Shown one piece after another: positions 46,396 through 61,801 of a DNA stretch of 64,000 nucleotides (position 1 is its first letter; each line of letters begins with the position of its first letter). The translations under genes were made by a program, and so were the position numbers. The notes beneath the pieces are model-generated. The model was given only the letters and a program-made list of their open reading frames with translations. It made no database searches and had not been told where the DNA came from. Source of the stretch: Akkermansia sp. (GTDB lineage: Bacteria > Verrucomicrobiota > Verrucomicrobiia > Verrucomicrobiales > Akkermansiaceae); assembly GCA_045531695.1 (NCBI GenBank), contig JAZSEM010000053.1:1307-65306 (forward strand), given 5' to 3'.

Positions 46396-46737
46396 TGGTA
46401 TTCCGCCTTTCGGCTGAATGTGCTTTTAGCTTCCATTGGCGTACGCCTCGCATTCCGCCACCCGCTCACGTCACAAATGCCTTTCGGCTGAATGTGCTTT
46501 TAGCTTCAGGTGATGTACGAGATAAAGGTGCAGCTCGAAACGCTGAGTCACAAATGCCTTTCGGCTGAATGTGCTTTTAGCTTGTGTCAAAAAGACTCTG
46601 GCAACCTGCAGCAATCTCACGTCACAAATGCCTTTCGGCTGAATGTGCTTTTAGCTTCGCATTCTCCCGTCGTAGGAGTTATGACCAGACTCAGCCGGAC
46701 GTCACAAATGCCTTTCGGCTGAATGTGCTTTTAGCTT
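46396..46737 (-). CRISPR. CRISPR array 1: 4 intact plus 1 truncated 37-nt repeats, 4 spacers (37, 40, 37, 43 nt)
   Basis: Repeat (+ strand) gtcacaaatgcctttcggctgaatgtgcttttagctt at 46470, 46547, 46621 and 46701. The left copy is degenerate (conserved 46405-46432) and an AT-rich leader lies to the right, so it is read on the - strand. Confidence 0.97.
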
Positions 46738-47100
46738 AGCTGAAAAAATGCGGGAAGTCAAGCATTCTTTGAAAAAAGAGGAATAATGAGTATAGCTGTG
46801 TTAGAAGTTGTAAGAGACTATATAATGAATGTATTAGAGGAGATAAGAGAGGGGTGAGTCTAAAAACTGATTTCAGTTCTGAGTACCCCAAAAATGGGGG
46901 GTGAAATCAGAAATGGGGGTAAAATGCGGTAAAATTACCGGAAATTGGTGAAAAATAGGTATTTTGGAACATGGGGAAATGGAGAAAATATATGCCAAAA
47001 TGGGGCAGATTGCTTATTTTTGACTAAAAATGGGCGTTTTTACTCAGAAAAACTGATTTCACCCCTGCTGAAAATGGCGTTTGGAACTGAAATCAGTTTT
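46738..47100. promoter_or_regulatory. CRISPR leader / divergent promoter region 1 with 48-bp inverted repeats
   Basis: Colinear with 58530-58892 at a constant offset of 11,792. Arms at 46863-46910 and 47053-47100. Confidence 0.8.
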
Positions 47101-47270
47101 GATTGAAAAATCATAAACAACTCGGGAGTCGGGGGAGTGTAATGTTCCGGAATGTTCCGGCAATGGAAAATCTGACAAAAATGTGTTTTAATACACATGT
47201 CATCGGACGTAAGTAAGAAATAAGCACACAACAGAAAATGAATAAATCAACATCACATAAATATCAAATC

Positions 47271-47732
47271 ATGCAAATCCGCAATACCATCAACGTCCTT
47301 TCCGCTATCCCCGCTCTGTACCGGAATAAGTTGCTGCCCTCCATCGAAGCGCTGCTGCAGAGCAAATGGGGGCGCATGGTAGGTGACCCTCAGTTCCGTG
47401 GTCAGCTTATTGATCTGGCTGAGTCGTGGCTGAACAAGCACAAGGAGAGCCCGCTGGCTGCCCATCTAATTCGCCTGCTGGAAATGCTGCGCCCGCTTCT
47501 TACCGACACTGAGCCGCTGAGCAAAACAAAGATGCTGGCTATAGCTGCCGCTGTGCTCTATGTGATAAGCACGCTGGATGTAGTTCCCGATTTCCTGCCG
47601 CTCATCGGCTGGCTGGATGACCTGGGAGTGATCGCGATGGTGCTGCGCCACGCACTGGGCGAGCGTGCGGGCGAGGCGCTCTCAGGAATAATCGGGAAAG
47701 TTCTTCCCCTTGCAACCACCCGCAAAGCATGA
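47271..47732 (+). CDS. YkvA/DUF1232-family membrane protein, copy 1 (long-tail type)
   Basis: AAVLYVISTLDVVPDFLPLIGWLDD motif. Likely start 47271 (ORF track gives 47238). Confidence 0.85.
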   Translation: MQIRNTINVLSAIPALYRNKLLPSIEALLQSKWGRMVGDPQFRGQLIDLAESWLNKHKESPLAAHLIRLLEMLRPLLTDTEPLSKTKMLAIAAAVLYVISTLDVVPDFLPLIGWLDDLGVIAMVLRHALGERAGEALSGIIGKVLPLATTRKA

Positions 47733-47818
47733 TTTAATACAGACATCACCAACCTCTCAATAAACATACTCAAACATATAAACAACAATCTATAAATCCC
47801 CAACTCACACACTATCAT

Positions 47819-48232
47819 ATGCAAATACAGAACACCATCAACGTTATTTCCACCATCCCTGCTCTGTACCAGAATAAGCTGCTGTCCTCCGTCGAAGCGC
47901 TGCTGCAGAGCAAATGGGGGCGCATGGTAGGTGACCCTCAGTTCCGTGGTCAGCTTATTGGCCTGGCCGAGGCGTGGCTGAACAAGCACAAGGAGAGCCC
48001 GCTGGCTGCACATCTCATTCGCCTGCTGGAAATGCTGCGCCCGCTGCTCACAAGCGAGGAGCCGCTGAGCAAGACAAAGATGCTGGCCATAGCCGCAGCA
48101 GTGCTCTACGTTATCTCTCCAATCGATTCGTTACCGGATATTCTTCCGGGTGTCGGTTGGCTGGATGATTTAGGTATCGTACTGCTGGTTCTGCGCTATG
48201 TCCTGGGAATTCCGGCAGCGGAAAAAAGTTGA
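47819..48232 (+). CDS. YkvA/DUF1232-family membrane protein, copy 2 (short-tail type)
   Basis: Canonical LYVISPIDSLPDILPGVGWLDD motif. Confidence 0.88.
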   Translation: MQIQNTINVISTIPALYQNKLLSSVEALLQSKWGRMVGDPQFRGQLIGLAEAWLNKHKESPLAAHLIRLLEMLRPLLTSEEPLSKTKMLAIAAAVLYVISPIDSLPDILPGVGWLDDLGIVLLVLRYVLGIPAAEKS

Positions 48233-48310
48233 ATGAGGTGTTACGTCCTTTCAACGGGATGTTTGAGGGGGCAAACACGGGCTTTCAATAATAGCTCATT
48301 TCAACAAATA

Positions 48311-48364
48311 TATAAATCCCTTCCCCAGTGCTTTTTGATAAAGCAGCAGAGGAAGGGATTTATA
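48311..48364. terminator. Hairpin between the convergent DUF1232 pair and cmr operon
   Basis: 14-bp stem tataaatcccttcc / ggaagggatttata. Confidence 0.65.
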
Positions 48365-48372
48365 GTGCGTTG

Positions 48373-49275
48373 TTAAAGGTTGGTGAAGTTGTGTTCTCTT
48401 GCCTTTGCTCCCAAAGTAAAATCCGGCGCCTTGAGAATACAGAGTTTGAGCTTGTTTTCTATAAGTACAGGTCGGAATCGCACGGCAGAGCTCTGCCGAT
48501 CACCTATGGCATTGCCCAGTGCCGAGGTCCCATAGTGAGAGCCTTTTTTCGCGGATTGGCCTTTGCTTAGCGTGGGGTGAATACCGAGATTTTTTCGGTA
48601 TTCCTTGAGTTTCTGTGCGCAGTCTGATAGAAGCTGGGTTGTTACAGAACCATCGCCGAAATTTCCGTATTCTTTTTTGTCGAACAACCTGAAATTGAAA
48701 TTCTTTTTTACAATATTGTTGTTCAGTAGTTCGAGCACCTTCTGTTCATCCGTTTTAACCGGTGCATAGGCGCCCAGAGCACGTGTTTTACGAGCACCGA
48801 TAGCGCCAAGATTACACAGGCAGTCCCAAGCGAGACTCAGCAATTCCATATTAGCCGGGTTGATATCTTTCACTTGGCGTAACTCCAGCGTAAACTTTTT
48901 TTTAGGTGGTAGGTATGCATCTGAGCGTACGATTTTTGTCGCATCGAAGTTTTTTTCGTTGGCGCTCAGGAAATAAGTGATGTATGAGGAATTGGCAATT
49001 TTAATATTGGGTTGCTCAAAGCTCCAGCGAAAATCTGTTGGAGAAGGTTTAATGTTGACAACCAGCAGAGCTACGGCGGATGCTTGGCATTCACCATATA
49101 TTCCGCCGAAAACGGCTTGTTCCTGCTCCCTGGTTCCACCAAGGCAGCGGAACCACCAGCGTAGCTCACCTCGAAAAGATGCAGCCCTCAGTTCCGGGGC
49201 TGTTTGATCAGCACCGGCACAAAAGCATGGGGTGATGAGTTGGAGTTCACACGAACGAAATATTTTGGGAATCAT
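48373..49275 (-). CDS. cmr1: Type III-B RAMP protein Cmr1
   Basis: LQLITPCFCAGA…LRAASFRGELRWWFR and the Gly-rich loop LGAIGARKTRALG. Confidence 0.88.
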   Translation of the reverse strand: MIPKIFRSCELQLITPCFCAGADQTAPELRAASFRGELRWWFRCLGGTREQEQAVFGGIYGECQASAVALLVVNIKPSPTDFRWSFEQPNIKIANSSYITYFLSANEKNFDATKIVRSDAYLPPKKKFTLELRQVKDINPANMELLSLAWDCLCNLGAIGARKTRALGAYAPVKTDEQKVLELLNNNIVKKNFNFRLFDKKEYGNFGDGSVTTQLLSDCAQKLKEYRKNLGIHPTLSKGQSAKKGSHYGTSALGNAIGDRQSSAVRFRPVLIENKLKLCILKAPDFTLGAKAREHNFTNL

Positions 49276-50435
49276 GGGATATCCGGTAAGTTGATGTTGT
49301 AATTTTGTGCCATTTGGAACATGGCTTCCAGCGCTTTCTTGCGGGCTTTTTCCTCTTTTTTATCTGAGATTTTCTTATCCAGGAAGTCTCGAAAATCCTT
49401 CAGACGGCATGCCGGATCCTCTTCCGGTAAGGATATTGCTCGCAGCAGAGCCCAGTGATTCATGGGCTTTTTGTCCTTATCTTTGTGGAATTTGGAGAAC
49501 ATGTCGTGGAGTTTCTCCTTTTTGGAGATAAAGAGAATAGCTTCCTGCTGTTCCGGGGTGAAGATTTGCAGAGACTTATCGGCTACCTCGAAATAGCCAT
49601 ATCCGGCTGCTCCTTTAGCTCCAATTCCAAAGAGGATGAGTGCTTGGGTGAGCCATTCTTCAGCTGTGTCGAGTATTTCCGTGGCTGTGGGGGCATAGAG
49701 GGTGAAGCTGTAAATGGCATCTTTTCCGTACTCCACTGCCGGAAAGTAGCAGGGGGTGGGGAGTTCGTCATCTGTAGGATTGGGGGTGTCCCCTGACATG
49801 TAGTTTTTGTGGTGTGGGGTGAGTACCTCAGCACAGAGTTGTACTGTATTTTGGGGAACCGCCTGCATAAAATAAACCTGACCTTGTCGGGGACCATAGA
49901 GTTCCGCAAACTCATGGAGCCGGTTTTCGGGAATGGCTAGAGCTAAATCACTGTCTTTCTGGAAATCTGATTGAGAGCAACCGAAAATACGAACAAATAA
50001 ATCCAACAGTTTTTCTACCTGTTCAGCATCTTCGCATTCTTGCATTTTGGCTATGGCATATCGTCTGGCTGCACCTTTCACTGCGCTTCCCGGTATGATT
50101 GGAACGCCACAGCTGTGTTCCAGCGCAATGCTGGCATTTTCGAGAATACTGCCGGAAAGATTAATCAACAGTCTGCTTTGCAGAGTTGCTTGTATGGTGC
50201 GGCATCGGCTTATCGGAAGTGAGTCCACAAAATGCGTCCAGTACGAGCCGAAAGTCCGGAGCTCCGCTGCATGAATCAGTGCTTCTACCCCCTTTTTTTT
50301 GTATTCAGCGTCTTCGCTGCCATCTTCACCTCGTGCTGATGGTGCAAAATACGTGCTTGCCAATGTGCGGGCTCGATCATTGCCGGAGAGTGAATGCCAG
50401 GCATTTTTTGCCCGGTTTGCTGCATAGATATTCAT
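49272..50435 (-). CDS. cmr6: Type III-B RAMP protein Cmr6
   Basis: GVPIIPGSAVKGAAR, EVLTPHH…PTDDELP and GIGAKGAAGYG motifs. Confidence 0.92.
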   Translation of the reverse strand: MNIYAANRAKNAWHSLSGNDRARTLASTYFAPSARGEDGSEDAEYKKKGVEALIHAAELRTFGSYWTHFVDSLPISRCRTIQATLQSRLLINLSGSILENASIALEHSCGVPIIPGSAVKGAARRYAIAKMQECEDAEQVEKLLDLFVRIFGCSQSDFQKDSDLALAIPENRLHEFAELYGPRQGQVYFMQAVPQNTVQLCAEVLTPHHKNYMSGDTPNPTDDELPTPCYFPAVEYGKDAIYSFTLYAPTATEILDTAEEWLTQALILFGIGAKGAAGYGYFEVADKSLQIFTPEQQEAILFISKKEKLHDMFSKFHKDKDKKPMNHWALLRAISLPEEDPACRLKDFRDFLDKKISDKKEEKARKKALEAMFQMAQNYNINLPDIP

Positions 50436-50440
50436 AAGGC

Positions 50441-50827
50441 TTAAAGTTTATTCATGGCACGAACAAATCGCTTCAGGTAATTGAGGTAGGTCAGGCACTC
50501 ATCCGACATCATGGCCAGTTGTGTGGGCTCTGATGTTGTGGAGATGGTGCGGATGGCTGACATCACATCTGTCGGCAAGGGGGAGCCGGGGAAACGTTTT
50601 CGGGCCTGCAAGTTGCTCAGGTGGCCGATGAGGGACTGTGCAATCAGTTGGCACTCGCCGCCTTTGTCTACGCTGTATGCCAAGGTCGCCAGCAGACCAT
50701 TGGTGATGATGAGGGAGTGGTAGCCTGAAAGCTGGTCACCTTCTTTACCTCGAGCACAGTGGATTTTTTCTGCATCCGCCAGTGCGTTTGCAGCACGGAA
50801 TTGCTCCATGTTGATGATAGTTTTCAT
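50441..50827 (-). CDS. cmr5: Type III-B small subunit Cmr5
   Basis: 128-aa helical protein with SLIITNGLLATLAY and LNYLKRF, between cmr4 and cmr6. Confidence 0.85.
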   Translation of the reverse strand: MKTIINMEQFRAANALADAEKIHCARGKEGDQLSGYHSLIITNGLLATLAYSVDKGGECQLIAQSLIGHLSNLQARKRFPGSPLPTDVMSAIRTISTTSEPTQLAMMSDECLTYLNYLKRFVRAMNKL

Positions 50828-50847
50828 AACAGCACAAGAGAATGGAG

Positions 50848-51648
50848 TTAAATAAGAGATGTTGTGCAGAACCCGAGGCCGGTGGTGGCATCTGCCCCAA
50901 TTTGGAGAACCGGGGGTATATTCAGCTTGTCGAGGGTACCGGTGCGCAACTCGGTGAGAGTGGCATAGAAAAGAGTTTCTGCCGGAACATTTTCCTGATT
51001 GAAGAGTGCGCCATCAGCTGCCGTTCCGGTGCTATCATCAATTTTAACGTGTTGGGCAATTTCGCAGGAGGATGTGCAGAAGTGACTGAGCATTTCATCG
51101 GAGGCGAGGAGTAGGTGGTCCCCCAGAAGCTCAGTCCACATGGGGTCGGCGCATGCTGTTTGCAACGCTTCCACCAGCCCGGTGGGCAGGGGGGCTGCAT
51201 CGAGCAGGTAGCCTTCCAACAGAACTTGCCCGGCTTGTGTTTGGAGGGAATCTGCTGCATATACAGAGCAACCCTCTGTTCGGGGAATGTCGTAGGAACG
51301 GCCGGTGTCGCGCAGCCAGCGTTGCAATGCCAGCGGACTGGTTACCCAGGCAAAGCAGCCTCGGGCGCTGCGCACCGGGAACGCCAGTAGCTTGGCTTCG
51401 CCGAATGCCAATCCCCCGGACTGATTAGAGTTTTCTTTGCCCAGTATGGCTTCGCCATCTGCTGTGCGGCGGAATTGGGAGTCCAGATAGAGGTCGGCAA
51501 TTACTCCCTTGATGGCAGAACCGGGAATGCAAGGGAAACCGGTATGTCTTTCGCGTACAATGGGTTGATCGATAGCTCCGACAGAGGCTCCGGCTCCGAT
51601 GTGGAGTGGTGTGCGGGTAAAGATGGAAAGAATGGATGTAGTGGACAT
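50848..51648 (-). CDS. cmr4: Type III-B RAMP backbone protein Cmr4
   Basis: TPLHIGAG…IDQPIVRERHTGFPCIPGSAIKG, LLAFPVRS, ENVPAETLFY and IGADATTGLG. Start 51648 preferred. Confidence 0.93.
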   Translation of the reverse strand: MSTTSILSIFTRTPLHIGAGASVGAIDQPIVRERHTGFPCIPGSAIKGVIADLYLDSQFRRTADGEAILGKENSNQSGGLAFGEAKLLAFPVRSARGCFAWVTSPLALQRWLRDTGRSYDIPRTEGCSVYAADSLQTQAGQVLLEGYLLDAAPLPTGLVEALQTACADPMWTELLGDHLLLASDEMLSHFCTSSCEIAQHVKIDDSTGTAADGALFNQENVPAETLFYATLTELRTGTLDKLNIPPVLQIGADATTGLGFCTTSLI

Positions 51649-51676
51649 AAAGATGAATAATGATGAGAGTTGAAGT

Positions 51677-53002
51677 TTATTTTGCAAAATGCCAGATAGC
51701 GCATACGCCGAGGCCGAAGCCTTGCTCCCCCAGTAGTTCTGAGCGGCGGTTGAGTGAGCCTGAAGCAGTGCAATGCAGTGCCTGACAGAGCTGCTCTGCA
51801 TCGGCAACACTATTACACTCAAAGTAATATACTGAGCCTGCCGGTGCCGCAGAGTGGGCAGCTTTGGGGCCTTCCTCGGCATCCGGTCTGTCGGTAGTGG
51901 AATAGCCGGCTATGGAGAGTGGCTTGCCTACTACCGCGGCAACCAAGTGGGCTGCTATACGGTTCTTGCTTGCTTGCAGTCGAGCTCTCCATGCTGCGCG
52001 GGATTCCCCCTCATTGCGGGCGCGATTCCCCCCCTGCAACAGAACGTCACCGGTGGTAGCGTGCACCCAGCTGGGCAGCCAGCCGCCGGGGTGTTCTCCG
52101 TGTCGGCTCCAGATAGCCGGGGTAATCAGTACCCATTTGACACGAACTTTCCCATCGATATCCTGCTGCAACTCTGGTATGGGGGGAAGTGGCAGTTCAC
52201 TGATGGAACTTAACACGGCGGTGCATATTCTTTGTTGACCTCCGACAACGATGCGATTATTTTGCTGTAACAGCTCTTCTAACACGTCTTTGCGTCCGCC
52301 ATCCGCTGTTTTTTCTGAAGAACTTACCCAACTGCCTATGCTCCACCCCGGTTTGATTCGCAGTCCGGAGTATGAGTAAAATGTGCCGGCTTTTACTGTG
52401 TTTGTTGCATCCTCGCGGGCTATACCATAGTGGTGTTCCAAATCTGCGATATCAGCATAGTTAATTCCCTGTCGGTTGTTGAGCTGGGGATGTTGTTTAC
52501 CTGTCACTCCCTGTGCAGATGTTCGGACGTACTGCTGCCAAGCCGTAGAGGAGAGCCAGATGGGAGCTCGGTTTTCTTTACTGGGTGCGCAAAGGCTTGC
52601 TACACTGTAGCGCAGGGGGGCCGGTAAGGTGGACTGCCCTGCCATTTCTTTGGACAGAGGTAGGCTGGTGGGAGCTGCTATGCCCAGCTCCATATCCAGC
52701 GGGCAGGGGAAGTACCATTCCTGCTCTGTGGCATCGACACGCACCGGGAAGGGGCCGGCGTGTAGCAATGAACCATAACGTGAGGTGCGATTTTCAGCTC
52801 CGCTGTATCTGCGCTGCTGACCGCGCGTGTGGAACTCATGATTGTGGCCGGATATGCCACTGCGGTGCAGGGCTGCACGCAACGCATGTGATATGAGATC
52901 CGGCGTGGGCCAGAACATTGTATGTCCTGCGAGGGCACCCTCCATGGGACGGGCATCGCGTATCATGAGTATATCGGAAGGTGTTAAAATAAGCTGGTTC
53001 AT
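51677..53002 (-). CDS. cmr3: Type III-B RAMP protein Cmr3
   Basis: PSDILMIRDARP, PTPDLISHALR, LITPAIW, AAPAGSVYYF and GFGLG. Start 53002 preferred. Confidence 0.9.
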   Translation of the reverse strand: MNQLILTPSDILMIRDARPMEGALAGHTMFWPTPDLISHALRAALHRSGISGHNHEFHTRGQQRRYSGAENRTSRYGSLLHAGPFPVRVDATEQEWYFPCPLDMELGIAAPTSLPLSKEMAGQSTLPAPLRYSVASLCAPSKENRAPIWLSSTAWQQYVRTSAQGVTGKQHPQLNNRQGINYADIADLEHHYGIAREDATNTVKAGTFYSYSGLRIKPGWSIGSWVSSSEKTADGGRKDVLEELLQQNNRIVVGGQQRICTAVLSSISELPLPPIPELQQDIDGKVRVKWVLITPAIWSRHGEHPGGWLPSWVHATTGDVLLQGGNRARNEGESRAAWRARLQASKNRIAAHLVAAVVGKPLSIAGYSTTDRPDAEEGPKAAHSAAPAGSVYYFECNSVADAEQLCQALHCTASGSLNRRSELLGEQGFGLGVCAIWHFAK

Positions 53003-53003
53003 G

Positions 53004-54839
53004 TTATCTTTCGTTAGGATTTCGGCCGATGAAGGCGACGATACTGCACATGGGGACAAGCTCATCCACGGGGTTGCTGATACGTGGTCGGGGTGGCGTG
53101 CCTATTTGCTCCTGAAGCAGATGTCGGGTGTAGTTGCTCAGGCTGTTTCTTAAATTATCCCTCAATGCGTAATCTTTTCCCTGCCATTGGCGGTCGAGCA
53201 TGCTTTCAAATTCCAGTAATGCCACATTGACTGCTGCTGTGTGGTACGGAGTATGCAACTGGTAGTGCATCATCTCACTTTTACCACTCATGTAGGGGGT
53301 TAATAGTTCGGCATAGCGGTGAGCCCCCTTAGCGGATATTTGTTCCTGCTCTATACATTCCTGCCATATATTCAGGAGTTCTCGCGCCCCACTATCCCAC
53401 CTTGCGCCCCATTCGATGATTTCGCCGGAGCGTTTAAGCGCGGAAATGGAGAAGGCATTGCGCCCAAGAGTTCCCTTGGCTCGCGCCTCTGCTCGGCGGG
53501 CAGCTTCTACAGCATCTTGCAGGGGGGCGGAACTGTGTACCAGTGCCAACCCGGCGGATACAGTCATGCCCTGACGTATGCTCTGCATGGTTTCGCTGAA
53601 AGCAGCCCCCAGTTTTGCAGCACAATCTACAGCTGTGGCAATGCCTGTGCCGCCGGATGTGTCGGTATCGGATTGCCGAACATGTAGTGGCAGCAGTGCC
53701 AGTACGTCATCTCCACCTGCGTAAATGAGCTTGCCCCCATATTCCTTGATGATGGCTCCCACCTTTTTCTGCGCGAAAGTTGCCAGAGCAGATGAGAATG
53801 TACGGTGAAAGTCTGCATTCACCAGCTTATCGTTGCCTTCATTTTGGCGTGTAAGTGCCGCGCCGATGTTGTCACCATCCATAGCCAGCACGGCATAATA
53901 ATGGCTATCGTGGTCAGACTGTCCCTCTACATTTGGCCCATAGGCAGCATTCAGCTCCGGTAGTTTATCCTCGTATGGCTGCATGTCGGGTACATACCAA
54001 AGACGCTTGATGAGGGTAATGGCACCCAGTGCATCATTGCGGCAGGGTGCCAGATACCGTTTGTACTCCCAATCGGTGCACAGGTGCGCATCCTTTTTCA
54101 GACAGAACACTTGTTCTTCTTTGCCGGTCAGATAATCTTTTACCTGTTCTCGCCCAGAGTGCCAGCCGGCATCCCGACCTAAGCCTGCATTGCGAGCGGC
54201 AAAGTTGTTCACTTTGCGTACGGCATTCATGCAGTGATCTACCAAATAATAGATGGTGGAATAGCGTGCAGCTGCCTTGCCCTGTTGCAGGCTGTGCAGT
54301 GCGCGGGTGAGGGGCGTTTGCTCTGTCACACCCTGAGCCAGTGTTTCAATATCGGCCAGTGGCAGCTCCATGGGTAGGTGTGCATAATCCACAGCCAAAT
54401 GTTGCTGCACCTGCATGTTGTAACGTGTTCGTCGGGCTGTATCCGTTTGTATAGCCACGGGCAACATGCTCCAAACCGTATCGGCTATGTCCTGCCAGGT
54501 GTCTTGTACAACGGAACGGGTGGCTTGAGCCAGTTGTTCAGCCTGTTCAGTTGGCACACAGGCCACCAGTTTGTTACTCAGGCAGGGTGCCTCGGCTCCT
54601 TCTACCCACCCGGTACCTTTTCGGGGCAGGCTCCACCATTGACAGATACTCAGTTCTCCGGTACAGGGGAAAATAATTTCTGCTTCTTCCTGTTGTTCCA
54701 GATAGTGCAGAGCAGCAGCCATGAGACGCGATAACAGATAGGAGCCGCTCCACAAATCTCGGGATGTGCGAGCCGCCGCTATGAAGTCTTGCACAGGACC
54801 TATCTGCATACGCAGCATACTTTTGCCGTTTGTTTGCAT
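53004..54839 (-). CDS. cas10: Cas10/Cmr2 (type III-B), HD-less, Palm domain intact
   Basis: IGPVQDFIAAARTSRDLWSGSYLLS at the very N-terminus, YAVLAMDGDNIG, YAGGDDVLA and AFSISALKRSG. Confidence 0.95.
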   Translation of the reverse strand: MQTNGKSMLRMQIGPVQDFIAAARTSRDLWSGSYLLSRLMAAALHYLEQQEEAEIIFPCTGELSICQWWSLPRKGTGWVEGAEAPCLSNKLVACVPTEQAEQLAQATRSVVQDTWQDIADTVWSMLPVAIQTDTARRTRYNMQVQQHLAVDYAHLPMELPLADIETLAQGVTEQTPLTRALHSLQQGKAAARYSTIYYLVDHCMNAVRKVNNFAARNAGLGRDAGWHSGREQVKDYLTGKEEQVFCLKKDAHLCTDWEYKRYLAPCRNDALGAITLIKRLWYVPDMQPYEDKLPELNAAYGPNVEGQSDHDSHYYAVLAMDGDNIGAALTRQNEGNDKLVNADFHRTFSSALATFAQKKVGAIIKEYGGKLIYAGGDDVLALLPLHVRQSDTDTSGGTGIATAVDCAAKLGAAFSETMQSIRQGMTVSAGLALVHSSAPLQDAVEAARRAEARAKGTLGRNAFSISALKRSGEIIEWGARWDSGARELLNIWQECIEQEQISAKGAHRYAELLTPYMSGKSEMMHYQLHTPYHTAAVNVALLEFESMLDRQWQGKDYALRDNLRNSLSNYTRHLLQEQIGTPPRPRISNPVDELVPMCSIVAFIGRNPNER

Positions 54840-54875
54840 GGATTGTTATGTGTGTTATGTTGTACGTATTGATTT

Positions 54876-55241
54876 CTATACCTCCACAAGACCTTCGTAG
54901 CTGAAAACACTGTGTTTTTCTACCCTTCCATCGGGCTGGTGTACCTCTTTACTGCGTCGCAGAGAAAAGGAAAAGTAGGTCCGGACTCCGCGTCGTTTCA
55001 GGCTTTGTGTCAGCTGTGCCATCAGGAAGGGAGCTCCACCCAGCATGGCTCCTTCAGCCCCTGCGGTGACTGCCAGCCCAGCCAGCTGTTCGGCGCGTTG
55101 CTGTACGTCTGCCAGAGTTGGCGGTGCGATGAAGGTAAGCAGTTCCCGTACCTGCTTGCTCAGCGGGGCAGGAAGTTCCTGTATGTTGTCTTTCTTTTGT
55201 TCTTCGGTCAGTGAGTGTTGTGTAAGGTTATAAATTGGCAT
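54876..55241 (-). CDS. Small CRISPR-associated alpha/beta protein, Csx15/Csx20-like N-terminus (candidate ring nuclease)
   Basis: 121 aa, with NLTQHSLTEEQ, LLTF, AMLGGAPFLM and YFSFSLR. Located directly upstream of cas10. Confidence 0.6.
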   Translation of the reverse strand: MPIYNLTQHSLTEEQKKDNIQELPAPLSKQVRELLTFIAPPTLADVQQRAEQLAGLAVTAGAEGAMLGGAPFLMAQLTQSLKRRGVRTYFSFSLRRSKEVHQPDGRVEKHSVFSYEGLVEV

Positions 55242-55270
55242 AGTAATAGGGTAGTTATTTGTTCGATGGA

Positions 55271-56386
55271 TTATTTTTTTTGGAATTTGATGTCGTGTAT
55301 TCTGTCGAATCCTATGGGGCTGTGAGGTTTGAGAGCATCTTCAGCCACCACGCTGTAACCGTTGTTTTCCAGTGTTTGTTTCAGGTATGTCTTTTCCTTG
55401 CTGAATATTCTAGGGTAATTATCCTTCCATGCTTCTTCCTTGAAGAGTTCCTCTTTTTCCCAGCGTCGAAGAATTTCATTGGGCAATCTGTTTGATTCGC
55501 GTAACCTGTTTCTCCATTTGTTGGCAAGCTTGTATGTAAGCTCCATGATTTCGCCCTTTTTTTTCCCTTTAAGAGCGTGCATTGCCATGATGGCCATCAG
55601 CATGTATTGGCGCGGAGGAAGTTCCAGAGATTCTCCATTGATGATGACCTTGCAGTCGCTTGTACTTATGCGTATCTTTACATCCTCAGGATATAGCTGG
55701 GTTATATGTTCCCTTGCTCGCCCCATGAGTCGGGAGAAGGAACCGCCGGTTTCAAAGTCCGCTCCTTTCACCAGTGAAACCAACGGTACAAAGGGAATCT
55801 CTGCCAAATCTATTTTCACTTGTGCAGCGGTGAAATCCTCCCCCGTTCTGTTTATCAGCTGCTGCTTTTCCTGTTCCGGGAAGAAGAACTCCGTGCAGCT
55901 GGTGACTTTCTCATCTGCCAGCACGTGAGTTATGATGTCGTCACTGCTTGCTCCCAGACACATGGCTGCATACATCAGCGCGCTCATACTTTTGCGACCA
56001 CCTGCAATGGAGGCCACCAGTCGGCATATTTCCAGCTCAGGGTTTTTATAGCTACGGATTACACGTAGCAGTTGATCGGCCACAAGATTCTGGTCGGTGC
56101 TGGTTACAATGTCTATCAATTCGCAGCCTTGGTCATCTTCAAAGATGTATTTGGATAATTTGATTTTTTTTCTGAGTTTGTGTTCCAGCATTTTCCATAC
56201 GCTCATTTTTTCCTTTTGTTTCAGCAGCATGCTTTCTAACTTTTCCCAGCCGGTACGTGTGGTACATACCTTTACTTCATCCGGTACGAGGTCGGGGTGT
56301 TCTATGTGTAGTCCCCATATGGTCTCTGTTACCACGGCAGGGCTCATACCTACCACGGTTATTAAAACTACTTTTTCGCTGTTCAT
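55271..56386 (-). CDS. csx14: NE0113/Csx14-type CARF domain protein with putative C-terminal winged helix
   Basis: VLITVVGMSPAVVTETIWGL and SIAGGRKSMS…ITHVL CARF motifs. The C-terminal ~130 aa resembles an OmpR-type wHTH. Confidence 0.8.
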   Translation of the reverse strand: MNSEKVVLITVVGMSPAVVTETIWGLHIEHPDLVPDEVKVCTTRTGWEKLESMLLKQKEKMSVWKMLEHKLRKKIKLSKYIFEDDQGCELIDIVTSTDQNLVADQLLRVIRSYKNPELEICRLVASIAGGRKSMSALMYAAMCLGASSDDIITHVLADEKVTSCTEFFFPEQEKQQLINRTGEDFTAAQVKIDLAEIPFVPLVSLVKGADFETGGSFSRLMGRAREHITQLYPEDVKIRISTSDCKVIINGESLELPPRQYMLMAIMAMHALKGKKKGEIMELTYKLANKWRNRLRESNRLPNEILRRWEKEELFKEEAWKDNYPRIFSKEKTYLKQTLENNGYSVVAEDALKPHSPIGFDRIHDIKFQKK

Positions 56387-56634
56387 TACTTTAATTCGTT
56401 TAATAGAATGTCGGTTGTATCGGGCCGGAATTAACTTCGTGCCACCTGCAATTTACATATCTACTTATAGCATCCTTTCTATTTACATGTCAATTTTTTT
56501 TTAATGCAGGAATCTTCCGGGAAATTCCTGCATGATTTGCAGACCGAGTATTGTATTATGATTAACAGTTTGTTATGCTATCTCATTAAGATGTGGAACA
56601 TTCCCATCACTTTAACCTCAATATATGAGTTACT

Positions 56635-57654
56635 ATGAGCACTATCTTTATCGATTTAGCATATGGCAAGGGGCACCTTCGAGGAGATTGTATGCACTTG
56701 GTTGGGATTCCCTGGAAAAATAATTACGAGGCTGATGAAGCCATTCGCGAGGAAATATCCCGCAGTGTGCCTCTATCACAGGTGGAGCATGTGGTTGTCA
56801 ATCCTCAGGTTACCCTTAGCGGAGCTTTGCTGCAGGCTCTCCTTGAACGAGGTGTTGCTATTACCATGCTGGTGCAGAAAGGACTGCTCGGTACTGCGCA
56901 GCCCACTGGGGCACCCAAGGGTCACCTGCGACTCGCTCAGTACCGTTGCTGTTGCGATGCCGACTGGGCCTTGCGACAGGCGCGTGTTATTGTATCAACC
57001 AAAATTCATAATCAGGCATTTATGCTCCGCCGTCGTAAAAATCCACCGCCCGACGCTTTCTTTCGAGAGATGAAGAAGCTGCAGAAAGCTACGCTGTCGG
57101 CGACTGATACCGCCATGCTCATGGGGATTGAAGGGAGAGCCAGTGCTCTTTATTTCCCGGAGTGGGCGCGGGCTCTTCCTCCCGCTTTTCCTTTTAATGG
57201 CCGTTCTCGTCGCCCTCCGCGTGATGCGGTGAATGCCTGCCTTTCCTATCTGTCGGCTCTATGTCAGTCCGATATGCTGCGGGCTGTGGTAGAAGTGGGC
57301 CTGGATGCCGAACTGGGAGTGTTGCACAGTACAGAAGATTATCGCCACAATCTTGTTCTGGATCTTATGGAACCGTTCCGTCCCATTCTGGTTGAGGGGG
57401 TGACTCGAGATGCCCTGACCCACGGAATGCTTGGTGAAGAAAGTACCGAGATTCTTCCTGCAGATGGAGGTTGTTATCTTACTTCGCAGGGGCGTATTGC
57501 TATTATTCGACGTTATGAACAACGTATGCTCAGCTCATTCTTGCAGGGGGATAAACATACGACGCTGCGGCAGTGCATGCACCAGGTGGCTCGTCATTGG
57601 AAACATGCCGTTATGGATTCCCAATTAATTGCCTCGAACTTTAAACTCTGCTGA
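56635..57654 (+). CDS. cas1: CRISPR integrase Cas1
   Basis: GIEGRASALYF, RRPPRDAVNACLSYL and GVLH…NLVLDLMEPFRP motifs. Confidence 0.95.
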   Translation: MSTIFIDLAYGKGHLRGDCMHLVGIPWKNNYEADEAIREEISRSVPLSQVEHVVVNPQVTLSGALLQALLERGVAITMLVQKGLLGTAQPTGAPKGHLRLAQYRCCCDADWALRQARVIVSTKIHNQAFMLRRRKNPPPDAFFREMKKLQKATLSATDTAMLMGIEGRASALYFPEWARALPPAFPFNGRSRRPPRDAVNACLSYLSALCQSDMLRAVVEVGLDAELGVLHSTEDYRHNLVLDLMEPFRPILVEGVTRDALTHGMLGEESTEILPADGGCYLTSQGRIAIIRRYEQRMLSSFLQGDKHTTLRQCMHQVARHWKHAVMDSQLIASNFKLC

Positions 57655-57657
57655 AAG

Positions 57658-57942
57658 ATGTACTTTCTTGTCAGTTACGATATCGCTAATCCCCGGCGTT
57701 TGCGGCGAGTTTGTCGTTTGCTGGAGGGTGCCGGTACTCGCGAGCAGTACTCTGTTTTCCTTTGCAATATGGGAAGTATGCGGAGTATGTTGATATTGTG
57801 GGATACCCTTCAACGGGAAATTGACCCGACCGTTGATAGGCTTTCAGCCTACCCTATTGATGCCGCAGCGATGGCTCAGGCTTTACACGCCGGCGATTTC
57901 CCGGTAAGCCTTTTGACGGAACCGCTCATTATCATTGCCTGA
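57658..57942 (+). CDS. cas2: CRISPR-associated endoribonuclease Cas2
   Basis: LVSYDIANPRRLRRV…QYSVF…DRL motif. Confidence 0.95.
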   Translation: MYFLVSYDIANPRRLRRVCRLLEGAGTREQYSVFLCNMGSMRSMLILWDTLQREIDPTVDRLSAYPIDAAAMAQALHAGDFPVSLLTEPLIIIA

Positions 57943-57967
57943 ACGAATCTGTTCTCGATTCATTACG

Positions 57968-58008
57968 CCAAAAAAGCCTCCATCATAATTTGATGGAGGC
58001 TTTTTTGG
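57968..58008. terminator. Bidirectional terminator between cas2 and array 2
   Basis: ccaaaaaagcctccatca-taatt-tgatggaggcttttttgg. Confidence 0.85.
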
Positions 58009-58051
58009 GTGATGAAATAGATATCGTCGGTCTTTTGTAGCCAATGAGAGG

Positions 58052-58529
58052 AATCTCTACGATTTTCGGCCGTGTGCTTGTTGCTTTGATGCAGTTTACC
58101 GTTAAAGAGGGACAGAAGCCTGTAGTCACACATGCCTTTCGGCTGAATGTGCTTGTAGCTTCGCGAAATGCGCACCCTCACCAACACCTGCCAAAAACAG
58201 TCACAAATGCCTTTCGGCTGAATGTGCTTGTAGCTTGTGCTATCCAGCGCGCTGTAGACACTGCTATCGGTGAGTCACAAATGCCTTTCGGCTGAATGTG
58301 CTTGTAGCTTCTTTATCGGATGCGATGCGTTCGGTAAGGATTCTGTGTCACAAATGCCTTTCGGCTGAATGTGCTTGTAGCTTAGTTCATGGTCGAGCAC
58401 GGCATTCCCGGGAGTGTGAGTCACAAATGCCTTTCGGCTGAATGTGCTTGTAGCTTTGTCGAAGAGAACGACAACCGCCGCTGTCCTATGTGGTCACAAA
58501 TGCCTTTCGGCTGAATGTGCTTGTAGCTT
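58052..58529 (-). CRISPR. CRISPR array 2: 6 intact plus 1 degenerate 37-nt repeats, 6 spacers (36-38 nt)
   Basis: Repeat gtcacaaatgcctttcggctgaatgtgcttgtagctt at 58125 (1 variant base), 58200, 58274, 58347, 58420 and 58493, with a degenerate copy ending at 58086. Leader lies to the right. Confidence 0.97.
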
Positions 58530-58892
58530 AGCTGAAAAAATGCGGGAAGTCAAGCATTCTTTGCAAAAAAGAGGAATAATGATTATATGTTTGTTATGTG
58601 TTGCAAGTCCTTTGTAATCAGCTTGTTACGAGAAATGAGAGTAACGTGAGTCCAAAAACTGATTTCAGTTCTGAGAGGTTTTAAAGTGGGGAGTGAAATC
58701 AGAAATAGGGGTAAAATGCGGTAAAAACGACCAAAAATGGTGAAAAATAGGCATTTCGGAGCATGGTGGAACAGAGAAAATATATGCCAAAATGGGGATG
58801 TGTGCTTATTTTCGGCTAAAAATGAGCGCTTCGACTCAGAAAAACTGATTTCACCCCCACTAAAAATGTGAACTCCGACTGAAATCAGTTTT
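58530..58892. promoter_or_regulatory. CRISPR leader / divergent promoter region 2 with 48-bp inverted repeats
   Basis: Homolog of 46738-47100. Arms at 58655-58702 and 58845-58892. Confidence 0.8.
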
Positions 58893-58931
58893 GCTCAAAA
58901 TATCACAATGATACAGGAATGTGTGACTATA

Positions 58932-58988
58932 CAGGAATTACCGGGAAAGTTCTTACCCTTGTAAACGACCACAAAGCATGATTAAATA
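58932..58988 (+). pseudogene. 3' remnant of a fifth DUF1232 gene
   Basis: 57 bp identical to 59481-59537 (last codons, stop and downstream bases of copy 3). Confidence 0.75.
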
Positions 58989-59068
58989 CAGACATCAACC
59001 AACTTCTCAATAAACATACTCAAACATATAAACAACAATCTATAAATCCCCAACTCACACACTATCAT

Positions 59069-59530
59069 ATGCAAATACAGAACACCATCAACGTCATTTC
59101 CACCATCCCCGCTCTGTACCAGAATAAGCTTCTGCCCTCCGTCGAAGCGCTGCTGCAGAGCAAATGGGGGCGCATGGTAGGTGACCCTCAGTTCCGAGGT
59201 CAGCTTATTGACCTTGCTGAGGCGTGGCTCACCAAGCATAAGGAGAGTCCTCTGGCTGCGCATCTCATTCGCCTGCTGAAAATGCTTCGCCCGCTGCTCA
59301 CCGGCACCGAGCCTCTGAGCAAGACAAAGATGCTGGCTATAGCCGCCGCCGTGCTCTACGTGATAAGCACGCTGGATGCAGTACCCGATTTCTTGCCGCT
59401 CATCGGCTGGCTGGATGACCTGGGAGTAATTACAATGGTACTGCGCTACGTGCTGGGCGAACGAGTGGGGGAGGCCCTCTCAGGAATTACCGGGAAAGTT
59501 CTTACCCTTGTAAACGACCACAAAGCATGA
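59069..59530 (+). CDS. YkvA/DUF1232-family membrane protein, copy 3 (long-tail type)
   Basis: LYVISTLDAVPDFLPLIGWLDD motif, 153 aa. Confidence 0.87.
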   Translation: MQIQNTINVISTIPALYQNKLLPSVEALLQSKWGRMVGDPQFRGQLIDLAEAWLTKHKESPLAAHLIRLLKMLRPLLTGTEPLSKTKMLAIAAAVLYVISTLDAVPDFLPLIGWLDDLGVITMVLRYVLGERVGEALSGITGKVLTLVNDHKA

Positions 59531-59609
59531 TTAAATAAAGTCATCAACCATAACCCAAAACAAACAACCTAAAACATACTACCTAAAACTCAACATACAC
59601 AACTATCTT

Positions 59610-60053
59610 ATGAAAATCGAGAACACCATCAATATCGGCACACTTACCCTCCGCAACGTCATTTCCGCCATTCCCGCTCTGTACCGGAATAAGTTGCTGC
59701 CCACCATCGAAGCCCTGCTGCAGAGCAAGTGGGGGCGCATGGTAAGTAATCCTCAGTTCCGCGGTCAGCTCATTGACATGGCAGAGGCGTGGCTGAACAA
59801 GCATAAGGACAGTCCGCTGGCGTTCCATCTCATTCGCCTGCTGGAAATGCTGCGCCCGCTGCTCACAAGCGAGGAGCCTCTGAGCAAGACAAAGATGCTG
59901 GCCATAGCTGCCGCCGTGCTCTACGTGATAAGCACGCTGGATGCAGTACCCGATTTCCTGCCGCTCATCGGCTGGCTGGATGACTTGGGAGTAATTGCAA
60001 TGGTACTGCGCTACGTAGTTGGTTCGGTAGAGAAAGAAAAATCGGTATTCTAA
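59610..60053 (+). CDS. YkvA/DUF1232-family membrane protein, copy 4 (short-tail type)
   Basis: Same motif, with a small N-terminal insertion (INIGTLTLRNV). Confidence 0.87.
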   Translation: MKIENTINIGTLTLRNVISAIPALYRNKLLPTIEALLQSKWGRMVSNPQFRGQLIDMAEAWLNKHKDSPLAFHLIRLLEMLRPLLTSEEPLSKTKMLAIAAAVLYVISTLDAVPDFLPLIGWLDDLGVIAMVLRYVVGSVEKEKSVF

Positions 60054-60192
60054 TATAGGTAAAATGGATTTGCTAAAATCTGAAGAATGTGTGATGGAAA
60101 GGTAGGAGAAAAAGTTTAGACGTTTAGCCGTTGAAAAAAGTTGTTGACATTAACTTGAAGACATGAAATACTAGCTGAAGATTCAGCCTATT

Positions 60193-61784: not shown

Positions 61785-61801
61785 CTTGGGTGGGTTTGGG
61801 G

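What the first reader, a model, noticed from the sequence alone, without database searches (positions are those of the whole stretch)
47271..60053. Four YkvA/DUF1232 paralogs in a conserved long-tail plus short-tail pairing
All four share a near-identical ~85-aa N-terminal helical region and the D-x2-PD-x5-GWLDD membrane motif. In both modules the first gene ends in a long amphipathic tail (…GEALSGI(I/T)GKVL…KA) and the second in a short charged tail (…AEKS / EKEKSVF). Only copy 2 keeps the canonical SPID; the others have STLD. The retained A+B order suggests a hetero-oligomeric membrane complex. Type III systems often recruit membrane effectors (CorA, Csx23, Cam1; established), but these proteins have no visible cOA-sensing domain, so they may be transcriptionally induced effectors or membrane tethers (inference).
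Basis: partly seen in the sequence, partly recalled or inferred. Interest (0 to 1): 0.75.

Follow-up and report, generated by a model that had tools for sequence, protein, structure and literature searches.

The report
DUF1232 membrane proteins in CRISPR island
Four small DUF1232/YkvA membrane proteins sit in two tandem pairs inside an Akkermansia-type III-B CRISPR island; relatives recur in related CRISPR loci, so they look like a new, uncharacterised membrane accessory whose "long tail" is largely the promoter of the next gene.

Summary
Four intact paralogs (47271-47732, 47819-48232, 59069-59530, 59610-60053) all match Pfam DUF1232, are 80-87% identical and are under purifying selection.

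They lie inside a 15.5-kb type III-B (Cmr) island that is missing as one block in other strains. Each pair diverges from a CRISPR leader.

Relatives at 33-75% identity sit in related type III-B loci in at least seven other contigs, in five different arrangements. Neighbours include cmr1, cas1-cas2, a NE0113 CARF gene, and a long Card1-like CARF protein in four loci. More distant relatives and 41 generic DUF1232 loci are not CRISPR-linked.

The A/B reading needs revising:
- Every CRISPR-linked copy is preceded by a conserved ~70-nt promoter-like element (CCGGAAAGTTCT … TTGnAA-N17-TGnTTwAAT).
- The "long tail" is the upstream gene reading through that element. Its stop codon is the TG of the extended -10.
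- The tail evolves almost neutrally as protein.
- One relative locus has two 99% identical copies.

A GGAAnnTTCC palindrome is shared with the cas1 promoter, which suggests an island regulon.

Function is unproven. The best guess is regulated membrane-hairpin accessories working with the Card1-like cA4 sensor.

The parts
46397..46737 (-). CRISPR array 1. Five 37-nt repeats (GTCACAAATGCCTTTCGGCTGAATGTGCTTTTAGCTT on the + strand); the leftmost repeat is degenerate. Probably transcribed leftwards.
   Evidence: The degenerate repeat lies at the left end and the conserved leader-like DNA at the right end.
46738..47116 (.). Leader-like region of module 1, with four AAAACTGATTTCA / TGAAATCAG motifs.
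   Evidence: 74-97% identical to 58530-58908. The motifs are conserved in L001, L057 and L059.
47139..47215 (+). Non-coding promoter-like element upstream of copy 1. It holds a GGAATGTTCCGG palindrome, -35-like ATGGAA and -10-like TTTAAT.
47271..47732 (+). DUF1232 copy 1 (153 aa, long tail).
47683..47759 (+). Promoter-like element of copy 2, overlapping the last 16 codons and the stop codon of copy 1.
   Evidence: (family D6)
47819..48232 (+). DUF1232 copy 2 (137 aa, short tail, SPID).
48373..54839 (-). cmr1, cmr6, cmr5, cmr4, cmr3 and cas10/cmr2. GGDD is present and no HD domain was detected.
54876..55241 (-). csx20-like gene (121 aa).
55271..56386 (-). NE0113-type (CARF5) CARF protein, 371 aa, with an unassigned C-terminal ~165 aa. 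Candidate regulator by inference only.
   Evidence: AF2 was unusable.
56509..56529 (.). GGAATCTTCCGGGAAATTCC palindrome in the divergent NE0113/cas1 intergenic region, about 125 nt before the cas1 start.
56635..57942 (+). cas1 and cas2.
58125..58529 (-). CRISPR array 2. Six repeats (…GTGCTTGTAGCTT variant).
58530..58908 (.). Leader-like region of module 2.
58932..59008 (+). Non-coding promoter-like element upstream of copy 3. It is 97% identical to the tail-coding copy at 59481-59550.
59069..59530 (+). DUF1232 copy 3 (153 aa, long tail).
59481..59557 (+). Promoter-like element of copy 4, overlapping the tail of copy 3.
59610..60053 (+). DUF1232 copy 4 (147 aa, short tail).
60193..61704 (+). 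Long Card1/Can2-like CARF-PD-(D/E)xK protein (503 aa). It has S-C-K where Can2 has E-C-K, and a C-terminal basic amphipathic helix after an acidic linker.
46260..61788 (.). Extent of the CRISPR island, which is absent as one block in other strains.
   Evidence: Contigs of runs X8 and X25 join 46241/46260 to 61788/61827. G+C is lower inside the island.

Best explanation
The four genes are lineage-specific accessory genes of an Akkermansia-type III-B (Cmr) CRISPR island.

Architecture. Each encodes a small inner-membrane protein with three parts:
- an ~80-residue cytosolic helical domain;
- a DUF1232 helix-loop-helix hairpin whose acidic D-x2-PD-x5-GWLDD loop faces outwards;
- a cytosolic C-terminus.

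Expression (inferred from sequence only). Each gene is its own transcription unit. It is driven by a conserved promoter with a weak -35 (TTGnAA), an extended -10 (TGnTTwAAT) and an upstream CCGGAAAGTTCT / GGAAnnTTCC site. That site also occurs at the cas1 promoter, so the genes would belong to an island regulon controlled by one DNA-binding factor. The factor is possibly the NE0113-type CARF protein.

Function (inferred). At least two units associate in the membrane and form the membrane arm of the island's cyclic-oligoadenylate output. The most likely role is as a docking partner or target of the neighbouring long Card1-like CARF protein, which carries a C-terminal basic amphipathic helix. 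cA4 sensing would then be coupled to a membrane-located event.

The tails. The long tail of the first gene in each pair is mainly a by-product of reading through the next gene's promoter. It is not a specialised A subunit.
For: Membership in the island:
- The whole block 46260-61788, including both pairs and the Card1-like gene, is deleted as a unit in other strains.

Recurrent linkage in diverged relatives, with the same CRISPR repeat family shown for L001 and L059:
- L001: array-leader-A-B-ZnF-small TM-Card1-like.
- L003/L004: B-type gene convergent with cmr1.
- L049: DUF1232-ZnF-cas1-cas2.
- L050: Card1-like followed by DUF1232.
- L056: DUF1232 followed by a NE0113 gene.
- L057: leader motifs upstream.
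- L059: cas10-csx20-NE0113-Card1-array-cas1-cas2-small TM-DUF1232 x2-kinase-Card1-like.

In L059 the core Cas proteins are 77-80% identical to the window. NE0113, Card1-like and DUF1232 are 51, 50 and 44% identical, so the accessory genes diverge together.

Background: 41 generic DUF1232 loci from other genomes have no array and no detectable cas gene.

Purifying selection: dN/dS 0.19-0.38.

Promoter element:
- 11 aligned sites from 5 contigs have invariant operator, -35 and extended -10 positions, whether coding or not.
- GGAAnnTTCCSG occurs 3 times in 64 kb against 0.18 expected. The hits lie only upstream of copy 1 and in the NE0113/cas1 intergenic region, both ~125 nt from the start codon.
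- Among 59 loci it occurs only in CRISPR-linked ones.
- The Card1-like genes instead have a consensus TTGAC(A/G)-N17 promoter without the site.

Membrane anchoring: hydropathy and the AF2 model. DUF1232 is fused to dynamin-like GTPases and J domains elsewhere.

Oligomerisation: tandem pairs in L001, L054 and L059, and the double-unit fusion P0017.

Card1-like tail: FIKRLTIAVRYLFG, FFRRLAIAARYLFG, WLARLIHACTSLRG and FFKRVASAIRILFSG are conserved after a low-complexity linker in four orthologues at 43-63% identity.
Against: - There is no direct functional, expression or interaction data. The only RNA evidence is one low-depth metatranscriptome contig over a B-type gene in a related strain.
- All CRISPR-linked cases come from one lineage of gut Verrucomicrobia-like type III-B islands. 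The seven contigs are therefore not phylogenetically independent.
- Relatives with the same N-terminal domain occur outside CRISPR loci: L007 next to grpE-dnaJ-secA, L048, L051-53 and L058. The domain is therefore not a dedicated CRISPR sensor.
- Module 1 and L003/L004 have no adjacent Card1-like gene. Other genes intervene in L001 and L059.
- The regulator is unidentified. No DNA-binding domain was found in the NE0113 protein and its model was unusable.
- Promoter assignments are consensus matches only.
Confidence: 0.4

Rival explanations
1. The proteins are stand-alone induced membrane effectors. On type III activation a cOA-responsive regulator switches on the four promoters. The hairpin proteins accumulate, oligomerise and perturb or depolarise the membrane, giving dormancy or abortive infection. 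No partnership with the Card1-like protein is needed.
For: - Each gene has its own conserved promoter with an upstream operator-like site and a weak -35, typical of activator-dependent promoters.
- The site is shared with cas1 and, in L059, with a kinase gene and a small TM protein gene.
- Gene copy number is amplified: 4 copies here and a 99% identical tandem in L059.
- Invariant charged residues (DD, R) lie inside the hydrophobic hairpin.
- Cas10 keeps GGDD and lacks HD, so defence should rely on signalling.
Against: - There is no evidence of toxicity.
- Family relatives serve as plain anchors in fusions and sit in housekeeping contexts.
- No PADLOC defence model matches.
- Co-regulation with cas1 could just as well reflect general island induction.
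Confidence: 0.25
2. The genes are passengers. They would be ordinary YkvA-like membrane or envelope-stress proteins captured next to the CRISPR leader and copied together with array plus leader, with no role in immunity. The two pairs then simply reflect duplication of the array-leader module and later gene conversion.
For: - Array, leader and gene pair are duplicated as one collinear block at 80.5% over 1450 nt.
- Mosaic gene-conversion tracts are present.
- DUF1232 is a widespread family of unknown function, mostly outside CRISPR loci.
- The N-terminal domain also occurs in non-CRISPR relatives.
Against: - Linkage persists across 33-75% protein identity in five different gene arrangements.
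- All copies are under purifying selection.
- The genes share a regulatory motif with cas1.
- They are lost together with the island in strains lacking it.
Confidence: 0.2
3. The proteins act in the adaptation or crRNA arm, for example by localising Cas1-Cas2 or the leader/array region to the membrane during spacer uptake, rather than in interference output.
For: - The genes diverge from the CRISPR leader in the window, L001 and L057.
- They follow cas1-cas2 in L059 and precede cas1-cas2 in L049.
- The GGAAnnTTCC site lies at the same distance upstream of cas1 and of the first DUF1232 gene.
Against: - There is equally frequent adjacency to the CARF effectors Card1-like and NE0113.
- No precedent is known to me for membrane proteins in type III adaptation.
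- No sequence feature suggests nucleic-acid binding.
Confidence: 0.1

Closest known systems
DUF1232 / YkvA family (Pfam PF06803; B. subtilis YkvA; the domain also occurs in RING-finger proteins of plants)
   Same: All four proteins pass the Pfam gathering threshold. They carry the family's SP/TxD-x2-PD-x5-G(W)LDD loop between two hydrophobic helices.
   Different: - They belong to a subfamily with an ~80-residue N-terminal helical domain (S-x-W … W signature).
- They occur in tandem pairs.
- They are embedded in type III-B CRISPR islands with a dedicated promoter element.
- No function is established for the family. Full-text searches found only incidental mentions.
Cam3 (membrane protein always encoded downstream of the CARF-RelE effector Cami1 in type III-B loci; Hoikkala et al. 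2024, PMC11229360)
   Same: Both are predicted membrane proteins without a recognisable cOA sensor. Both are encoded in type III-B loci next to a soluble CARF effector and are therefore suspected to work with it.
   Different: - Cam3 is predicted to have a soluble N-domain plus a six-helix TM bundle. The proteins here are two-helix hairpins in multiple copies.
- The CARF neighbour is Card1-like, not Cami1.
- Homology to Cam3 was not tested because no Cam3 sequence was at hand.
Sensor-fused type III membrane effectors: Cam1, Csx23, CorA, Cap1, Chp1
   Same: They are membrane proteins in type III loci thought or shown to act by membrane perturbation.
   Different: - Those proteins carry their own ligand-binding domain: CARF, the Csx23 tetrameric domain, or the SAM-AMP-binding CorA.
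- None is detectable here.
- The N-domain here is shared with non-CRISPR relatives.
[quoted passage not shown] 2018, bioRxiv 10.1101/270033)
   Same: The same concept applies: membrane proteins without soluble functional domains, stably linked to type III systems and suggested to tether the machinery to the membrane.
   Different: That text does not mention DUF1232, YkvA or Akkermansia. Whether it is the same family could not be checked.
Csa3a-type regulation of adaptation genes by a CARF transcription factor (my own knowledge of Sulfolobus Csa3a; not checked in a paper here)
   Same: A palindromic site upstream of cas1, a CARF protein gene divergent from cas1, and the same site upstream of other island genes.
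   Different: The CARF protein here is NE0113/CARF5-type with no detected HTH. DNA binding is entirely inferred.

Membership tests
DUF1232 / YkvA (PF06803) | Pfam HMM match above the gathering score | tested here: met
   45.0-46.6 bits against a cut-off of 23 for all four.
DUF1232 / YkvA (PF06803) | Conserved acidic/proline loop (S-P/T-x-D-x2-PD-x5-G-x-L-D-D) flanked by two hydrophobic helices | tested here: met
   Alignment; hydropathy; AF2 helices 85-99 and 112-152.
Type III cOA-sensing membrane effectors (Cam1, Csx23, Cap1, Chp1, CARF-TM classes) | A CARF, SAVED or other known cOA-binding domain in the same polypeptide | tested here: not met
   No hit in PADLOC, NCBIfam (copy 1 only) or Pfam beyond DUF1232. 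No PDB sequence or fold match. The N-domain also occurs in non-CRISPR relatives.
Type III cOA-sensing membrane effectors | Ligand-dependent membrane depolarisation or growth arrest | not testable with these tools
   Needs experiments.
CRISPR-associated accessory gene (guilt by association, as in Shah 2019, Shmakov 2018, Hoikkala 2024) | Recurrent presence inside or next to type III cas cassettes in diverged genomes, in varied arrangements | tested here: met
   Window (two modules), L001, L003/4, L049, L050, L056, L057 and L059. All are from one repeat-family lineage.
CRISPR-associated accessory gene | Family (or subfamily) largely restricted to CRISPR loci | tested here: inconclusive
   Of the subfamily clusters with informative flanks, 7 are CRISPR-linked and 3 are not (L048, L051-53, L058), plus two remoter ones (L006, L007). 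Generic DUF1232 gave 0 of 41 loci. Many contigs are under 3 kb.
Sensorless membrane partner of a CARF effector (Cam3-like arrangement) | Conserved adjacency to one particular soluble CARF effector gene | tested here: inconclusive
   A Card1-like gene is adjacent, or within three genes, in window module 2, L001, L050 and L059. It is not adjacent in module 1, L003/4, L049 or L056.
Sensorless membrane partner of a CARF effector (Cam3-like arrangement) | Sequence or fold homology to Cam3 | not tested
The topology differs: a two-helix hairpin against six predicted TM helices.
Card1/Can2 (for the 503-aa neighbour) | Card1-type CARF domain plus a PD-(D/E)xK nuclease domain with an E-x-D … E-x-K active site | tested here: inconclusive
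   CARF_Card1 Pfam hit. PADLOC CARF4--CARF_PDDEXK hit over residues 3-407. Card1 PDB hit at E 4e-4 for the CARF part only. A weak alignment to Can2 7bdv puts E-T-D and S-C-K opposite E-L-D and E-C-K. S-C-K is invariant in four orthologues and also in the 448-aa Card1 of L059.

The most novel reading that the evidence does not exclude
The DUF1232 hairpin proteins and the long Card1-like CARF protein form a two-component, cA4-controlled membrane effector. The Card1-like protein has an S-C-K active-site variant and a C-terminal amphipathic helix. In this reading the soluble sensor docks on, or gates, an oligomer of DUF1232 units, whose synthesis is itself switched on by a CARF-type regulator through the GGAAnnTTCC operator. 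This would give the first function for the widespread DUF1232/YkvA family, and a new way for type III systems to reach the membrane through a separate sensorless subunit.
Probability: 0.15. Interest if true: 0.8.

Novelty: new member of a known kind. Interest (0 to 1): 0.55.

Why it matters
Type III CRISPR systems are known to recruit membrane proteins, but nearly all characterised ones carry their own nucleotide sensor. A sensorless, multi-copy, separately promoted membrane-hairpin family linked to a CARF effector would add a second example, after Cam3, of split sensor/membrane modules.

It would also offer an entry point into DUF1232/YkvA. That family has thousands of members (3,592 hits at E <= 0.001) and no known function. 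It is also used as a membrane anchor for dynamin-like GTPases and J domains.

The overlap of a protein tail with the next gene's promoter is a caution for reading 'subunit specialisation' from sequence alone.

The shared operator-like motif makes regulation of a whole CRISPR island directly testable in Akkermansia, a gut genus of applied interest.

Tried and rejected
- Generic sigma-70 promoter and terminator scans of both modules gave no enrichment over shuffles. The promoter element was found only by comparing loci.
- An Rfam scan of 46000-62000 gave only sub-threshold chance hits.
- Foldseek of the copy 3 model found nothing against PDB or BFVD at E <= 0.001.
- PDB sequence searches with the DUF1232 profile found nothing.
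- PADLOC has no defence model for the DUF1232 proteins or for the ZnF protein of L001.
- PHROGs matched only phrog_14750, of unknown function, over the DUF1232 core.
- A viral contig scan found no relative.
- A plasmid tblastn gave only two remote YkvA hits for copy 3 and nothing for the Card1-like protein.
- A JGI metagenome scan with the Card1-like alignment found no relative.
- The CRISPR-repeat scan of JGI metagenomes gave 5 loci. Only L060 was informative: cmr genes, a canonical 368-aa Can2 with E-C-K, and no DUF1232.
- AF2 of the NE0113 CARF protein without an alignment gave pLDDT 42 and was unusable, so its C-terminal domain stays unassigned. Pfam at E <= 10 on that region found nothing meaningful.
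- I first read 58932-59001 as the remnant of a deleted fifth gene. I rejected this once the same element was seen non-coding upstream of other copies.
- Apparent 'skip' joints at 59000->59564 and 59016->59597, and at 46262->58198, are ambiguous placements of short repeat matches. I did not use them.
- I considered calling the Card1-like nuclease dead because of S-C-K. I did not, because the alignment is weak and the canonical-length Card1 of L059 has S-C-K too.

Full report
**What is there**

The window region 46.2-61.8 kb is a type III-B CRISPR-Cas island of an Akkermansia-like genome. The nearest public relative is an Akkermansia sp. MAG. Near-identical DNA is found in pig, bovine and sheep gut metagenomes.

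From left to right the island contains:
- array 1 (46397-46737);
- a conserved ~380-bp leader-like region;
- DUF1232 copies 1 and 2 on the + strand;
- cmr1-cmr6-cmr5-cmr4-cmr3-cas10, csx20 and a NE0113-type CARF gene on the - strand;
- cas1-cas2 on the + strand;
- array 2 (58125-58529) and the same leader-like region;
- DUF1232 copies 3 and 4;
- a 503-aa Card1/Can2-like CARF protein.

Two features put the leader on the right of each array: the degenerate repeat at the left end of array 1, and the conserved DNA to the right of both arrays. The arrays are therefore read on the - strand and each DUF1232 pair diverges from a leader.

Contigs in two public runs join 46241/46260 directly to 61788/61827. 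The whole 15.5-kb block, including both pairs and the Card1-like gene, is thus an insertion/deletion polymorphism. G+C is also lower inside it.

**Check of the observation**

Every element of the description holds.
- All four ORFs hit PF06803 at about 1e-12.
- They are 80-87% identical to copy 1.
- They share an invariant D-x2-PD-x5-GWLDD motif.
- SPID occurs only in copy 2.
- The long tails (copies 1 and 3) and short tails (copies 2 and 4) are as stated.

Pairwise dN/dS is 0.19-0.38 with dS 0.35-0.67, so these are four maintained genes and not decaying duplicates.

AlphaFold2 with a 37-sequence alignment gives an all-helical protein. The N-terminal domain (residues 3-78) has pLDDT 72-89, followed by a helix at 85-99, a poorly defined acidic loop and a long helix at 112-152. 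Hydropathy shows two short hydrophobic segments around the loop. With a net positive N-domain and tail and an acidic loop, an N-in/C-in hairpin is the simplest topology. This topology is inferred.

No solved or viral predicted structure resembles the model.

**The paralogs are mosaics**

The two modules align collinearly at 80.5%. However, 47683-48111 matches 58932-59361 at 91.6%. Copy 3 therefore has a copy-2-like upstream region and 5' part joined to a copy-1-like tail.
- Copy 2 is A-like for its first 300 nt and distinct afterwards.
- Copy 4 is A-like to about residue 131 and then has a B-type tail.

In the related MAG (L001) the second gene is only 36-38% identical to the first. In runs X1 and X6 the 5' part of the gene at the copy 2 position is also different (loose ends at 48134). 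The high A/B similarity in this window is therefore best explained by gene conversion.

**Association with type III loci**

Close relatives are rare; one search returned 13 hits, mostly the window's own proteins. A profile search of 1.84 billion representatives and a word-index search revealed a subfamily with the same N-terminal domain at 33-52% identity.

Where flanks exist, the contexts are as follows.

| Locus | Context |
|---|---|
| L001 | array-leader-A-B-ZnF protein-small Gly-rich TM protein-Card1-like |
| L003/L004 | B-type gene convergent with cmr1 |
| L049 | DUF1232-ZnF-cas1-cas2 |
| L050 | Card1-like followed by DUF1232 |
| L056 | DUF1232 followed by a NE0113 homologue |
| L057 | the leader motifs upstream |
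| L059 | cas10-csx20-NE0113-Card1-array (27 repeats of the same family)-cas1-cas2-small TM-DUF1232 x2-Ser/Thr kinase-Card1-like |

L059 is a 36-kb contig. In it the core proteins are 77-80% identical to the window, while NE0113, Card1-like and DUF1232 are 51, 50 and 44% identical.

Contexts that are not CRISPR-linked:
- L048 (kinase);
- L051-53 (ankyrin);
- L058 (the fused double-unit protein P0017);
- the remoter L007 (grpE-dnaJ-rsmE-secA) and L006.

None of 41 generic DUF1232 loci from other species has an array or a detectable cas gene.

A remoter type III-B locus with the same repeat core (L060) has a canonical 368-aa Can2 with E-C-K and no DUF1232.

The linkage is real but confined to one lineage.

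**The long tail is a promoter**

Aligning the ~75 nt upstream of eleven CRISPR-linked genes from five contigs shows three conserved parts:
- an invariant C-GGAA--TTC box;
- a TTGnAA box;
- 17 nt later, TGnTTwAAT.

This is the layout of an extended -10 promoter with a weak -35 and an upstream factor site.

The element is non-coding upstream of copy 1 (47139-47215) and copy 3 (58932-59008), and upstream of the L057, L050 and L059 genes. In L059 that includes the kinase and small TM genes.

Upstream of copy 2, copy 4 and the L001 B gene, the same nucleotides are the last ~16 codons of the preceding gene. The stop codon TGA is the TG of the extended -10.

Within that tail, pN/pS is 0.61, 0.63 and 1.16, against 0.17-0.29 in the body. 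Synonymous divergence is lower in the tail than in the body. By Fisher's test p = 0.10, 0.28 and 0.007. The counts are small, so this is only suggestive.

In L059 the two copies are 99% identical and both stop before the element.

Tail length thus depends mainly on whether another DUF1232 promoter follows. It is weak evidence for A/B specialisation.

That at least two units act together remains plausible:
- tandem pairs recur in L001, L054 (56% identity) and L059;
- P0017 fuses two units that are 50% identical.

**A possible island regulon**

The first gene after each leader carries a fuller palindrome, GGAAnnTTCC(G/C)G.
- In the 64-kb window it occurs three times (expected 0.18).
- The hits are at 47147-47160 upstream of copy 1 and at 56509-56520 in the divergent NE0113/cas1 intergenic region.
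- Both lie about 125 nt before the start codon.
- Among 59 fetched loci it occurs only in the CRISPR-linked L001, L050, L057 and L059. In L059 it is again ~125 nt upstream of cas1.

The Card1-like genes instead have a near-consensus TTGAC(A/G)-N17 promoter without this site.

My inference is that one DNA-binding factor controls cas1-cas2, probably the divergent NE0113-csx20-cmr operon, and the DUF1232 genes. The NE0113 CARF protein is the obvious candidate, by analogy with CARF transcription factors. No DNA-binding domain could be shown in it.

**The neighbour**

The 503-aa protein has a Card1-type CARF domain and matches CARF4-PD-(D/E)xK profiles over residues 3-407.

A weak alignment to Can2 places E-T-D … S-C-K opposite E-L-D … E-C-K. 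The Can2 paper shows that E276A/D278A and E302A/K304A variants are inactive (PMC7969007). S-C-K is invariant in the four orthologues, but it also occurs in the shorter Card1 of L059. I therefore do not call the nuclease dead.

All four orthologues end in a low-complexity linker followed by a basic amphipathic helix. From my own knowledge this resembles C-terminal membrane-targeting helices such as that of MinD. This is a lead, not a test.

**What DUF1232 does elsewhere**

Nothing functional is published in the searchable library.
- In the profile search, 25 of the top 148 hits are proteins of 600 aa or more. The one I scanned (P0025) is DUF1232 followed by a dynamin-family GTPase.
- J-domain fusions also exist.
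- L007 lies next to grpE-dnaJ.
- A DnaJ-type CxxCxGxG zinc-finger protein follows the DUF1232 genes in L001 and L049.

The domain therefore behaves as a membrane anchor for cytosolic modules.

**Verdict**

The proteins are best described as a new, lineage-restricted membrane accessory of a type III-B island. They are separately promoted and probably co-regulated with cas1, and they are most often found near a long Card1-like CARF protein.
- Shown: how they are built and where they occur.
- Inferred: what they do, whether partner or tether of the CARF effector, induced membrane effector, or passenger.

The closest precedents are Cam3 next to Cami1 (PMC11229360) and the unnamed type III membrane families of Shmakov et al..

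Noticed in passing
46863-47100 and 58655-58895; also L001 1469-1708, L057 1-200, L059 5740-5930: The leader-like region holds four copies of AAAACTGATTTCA(G/C) in alternating orientation. One pair is a perfect 17-nt inverted repeat 204 nt apart. The arrangement is conserved in both modules and in three other contigs. It could be factor-binding sites for leader function or a structured element; no Rfam family matches.
   Followed up: partly
56509-56529: The palindrome GGAATCTTCCGGGAAATTCC lies in the divergent intergenic region between the NE0113 CARF gene and cas1. It is the same motif, at the same distance (~125 nt) from the start codon, as upstream of DUF1232 copy 1, and as upstream of cas1 in L059.
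   Followed up: partly
60193-61704 (especially residues 356-373 and 480-503): The Card1-like protein is ~120 residues longer than Can2/Card1. It has S-C-K where Can2 has E-C-K, by a weak alignment. It ends in an acidic low-complexity linker plus a basic amphipathic helix conserved in four orthologues.
   Followed up: partly
55077-56662: In metagenome runs X1 and X2 this segment (3' part of csx20, the NE0113 CARF gene and the cas1 5' end) is replaced. In X1 the replacement is 2788 nt of unrelated sequence inside an otherwise collinear 11-kb contig. The accessory cassette between cas10 and cas1 is therefore exchangeable between strains.
   Followed up: no
46241/46260 to 61788/61827: The whole CRISPR island is absent in some strains. 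Contigs of runs X8 and X25 join the ABC-transporter flank directly to the sialidase flank.
   Followed up: partly
L001 2953-3324 and 3324-3536; L049 540-1055; L059 7588-7890: Two further small genes travel with the DUF1232 genes in relatives but are absent from the window. One is a protein with a DnaJ-type double CxxCxGxG zinc finger (47% identity between L001 and L049). The other is a small protein with an RRW…EYxRRM motif, a Gly run and a TM helix (43% identity between L001 and L059).
   Followed up: partly
L059 9061-10902 (and L048 321-2528): A Ser/Thr protein kinase gene follows the DUF1232 tandem in L059 and carries the same promoter element only 15 nt before its start. A different kinase lies divergent from the non-CRISPR relative in L048; the two kinases are not detectably related outside the catalytic core.
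   Followed up: partly
P0025 and about 25 of the top 148 profile hits: There is a sizeable class of ~650-710-aa proteins. The one scanned (P0025) has this N-domain plus DUF1232 hairpin at the N-terminus and a dynamin-family GTPase behind it, which suggests DUF1232 anchors bacterial dynamin-like proteins to the membrane.
   Followed up: partly
43816-46167 (- strand): The 783-aa protein flanking the island contains two nearly identical periplasmic solute-binding domains in tandem, fused to an amino-acid ABC permease domain. This is an internal duplication.
   Followed up: no
46260-61788: No cas6 was recognised among the island ORFs that were annotated, although the repeat has a small GCC-GAAA-GGC hairpin near its presumed 3' end. 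The rest of the window was not searched for cas6.
   Followed up: no
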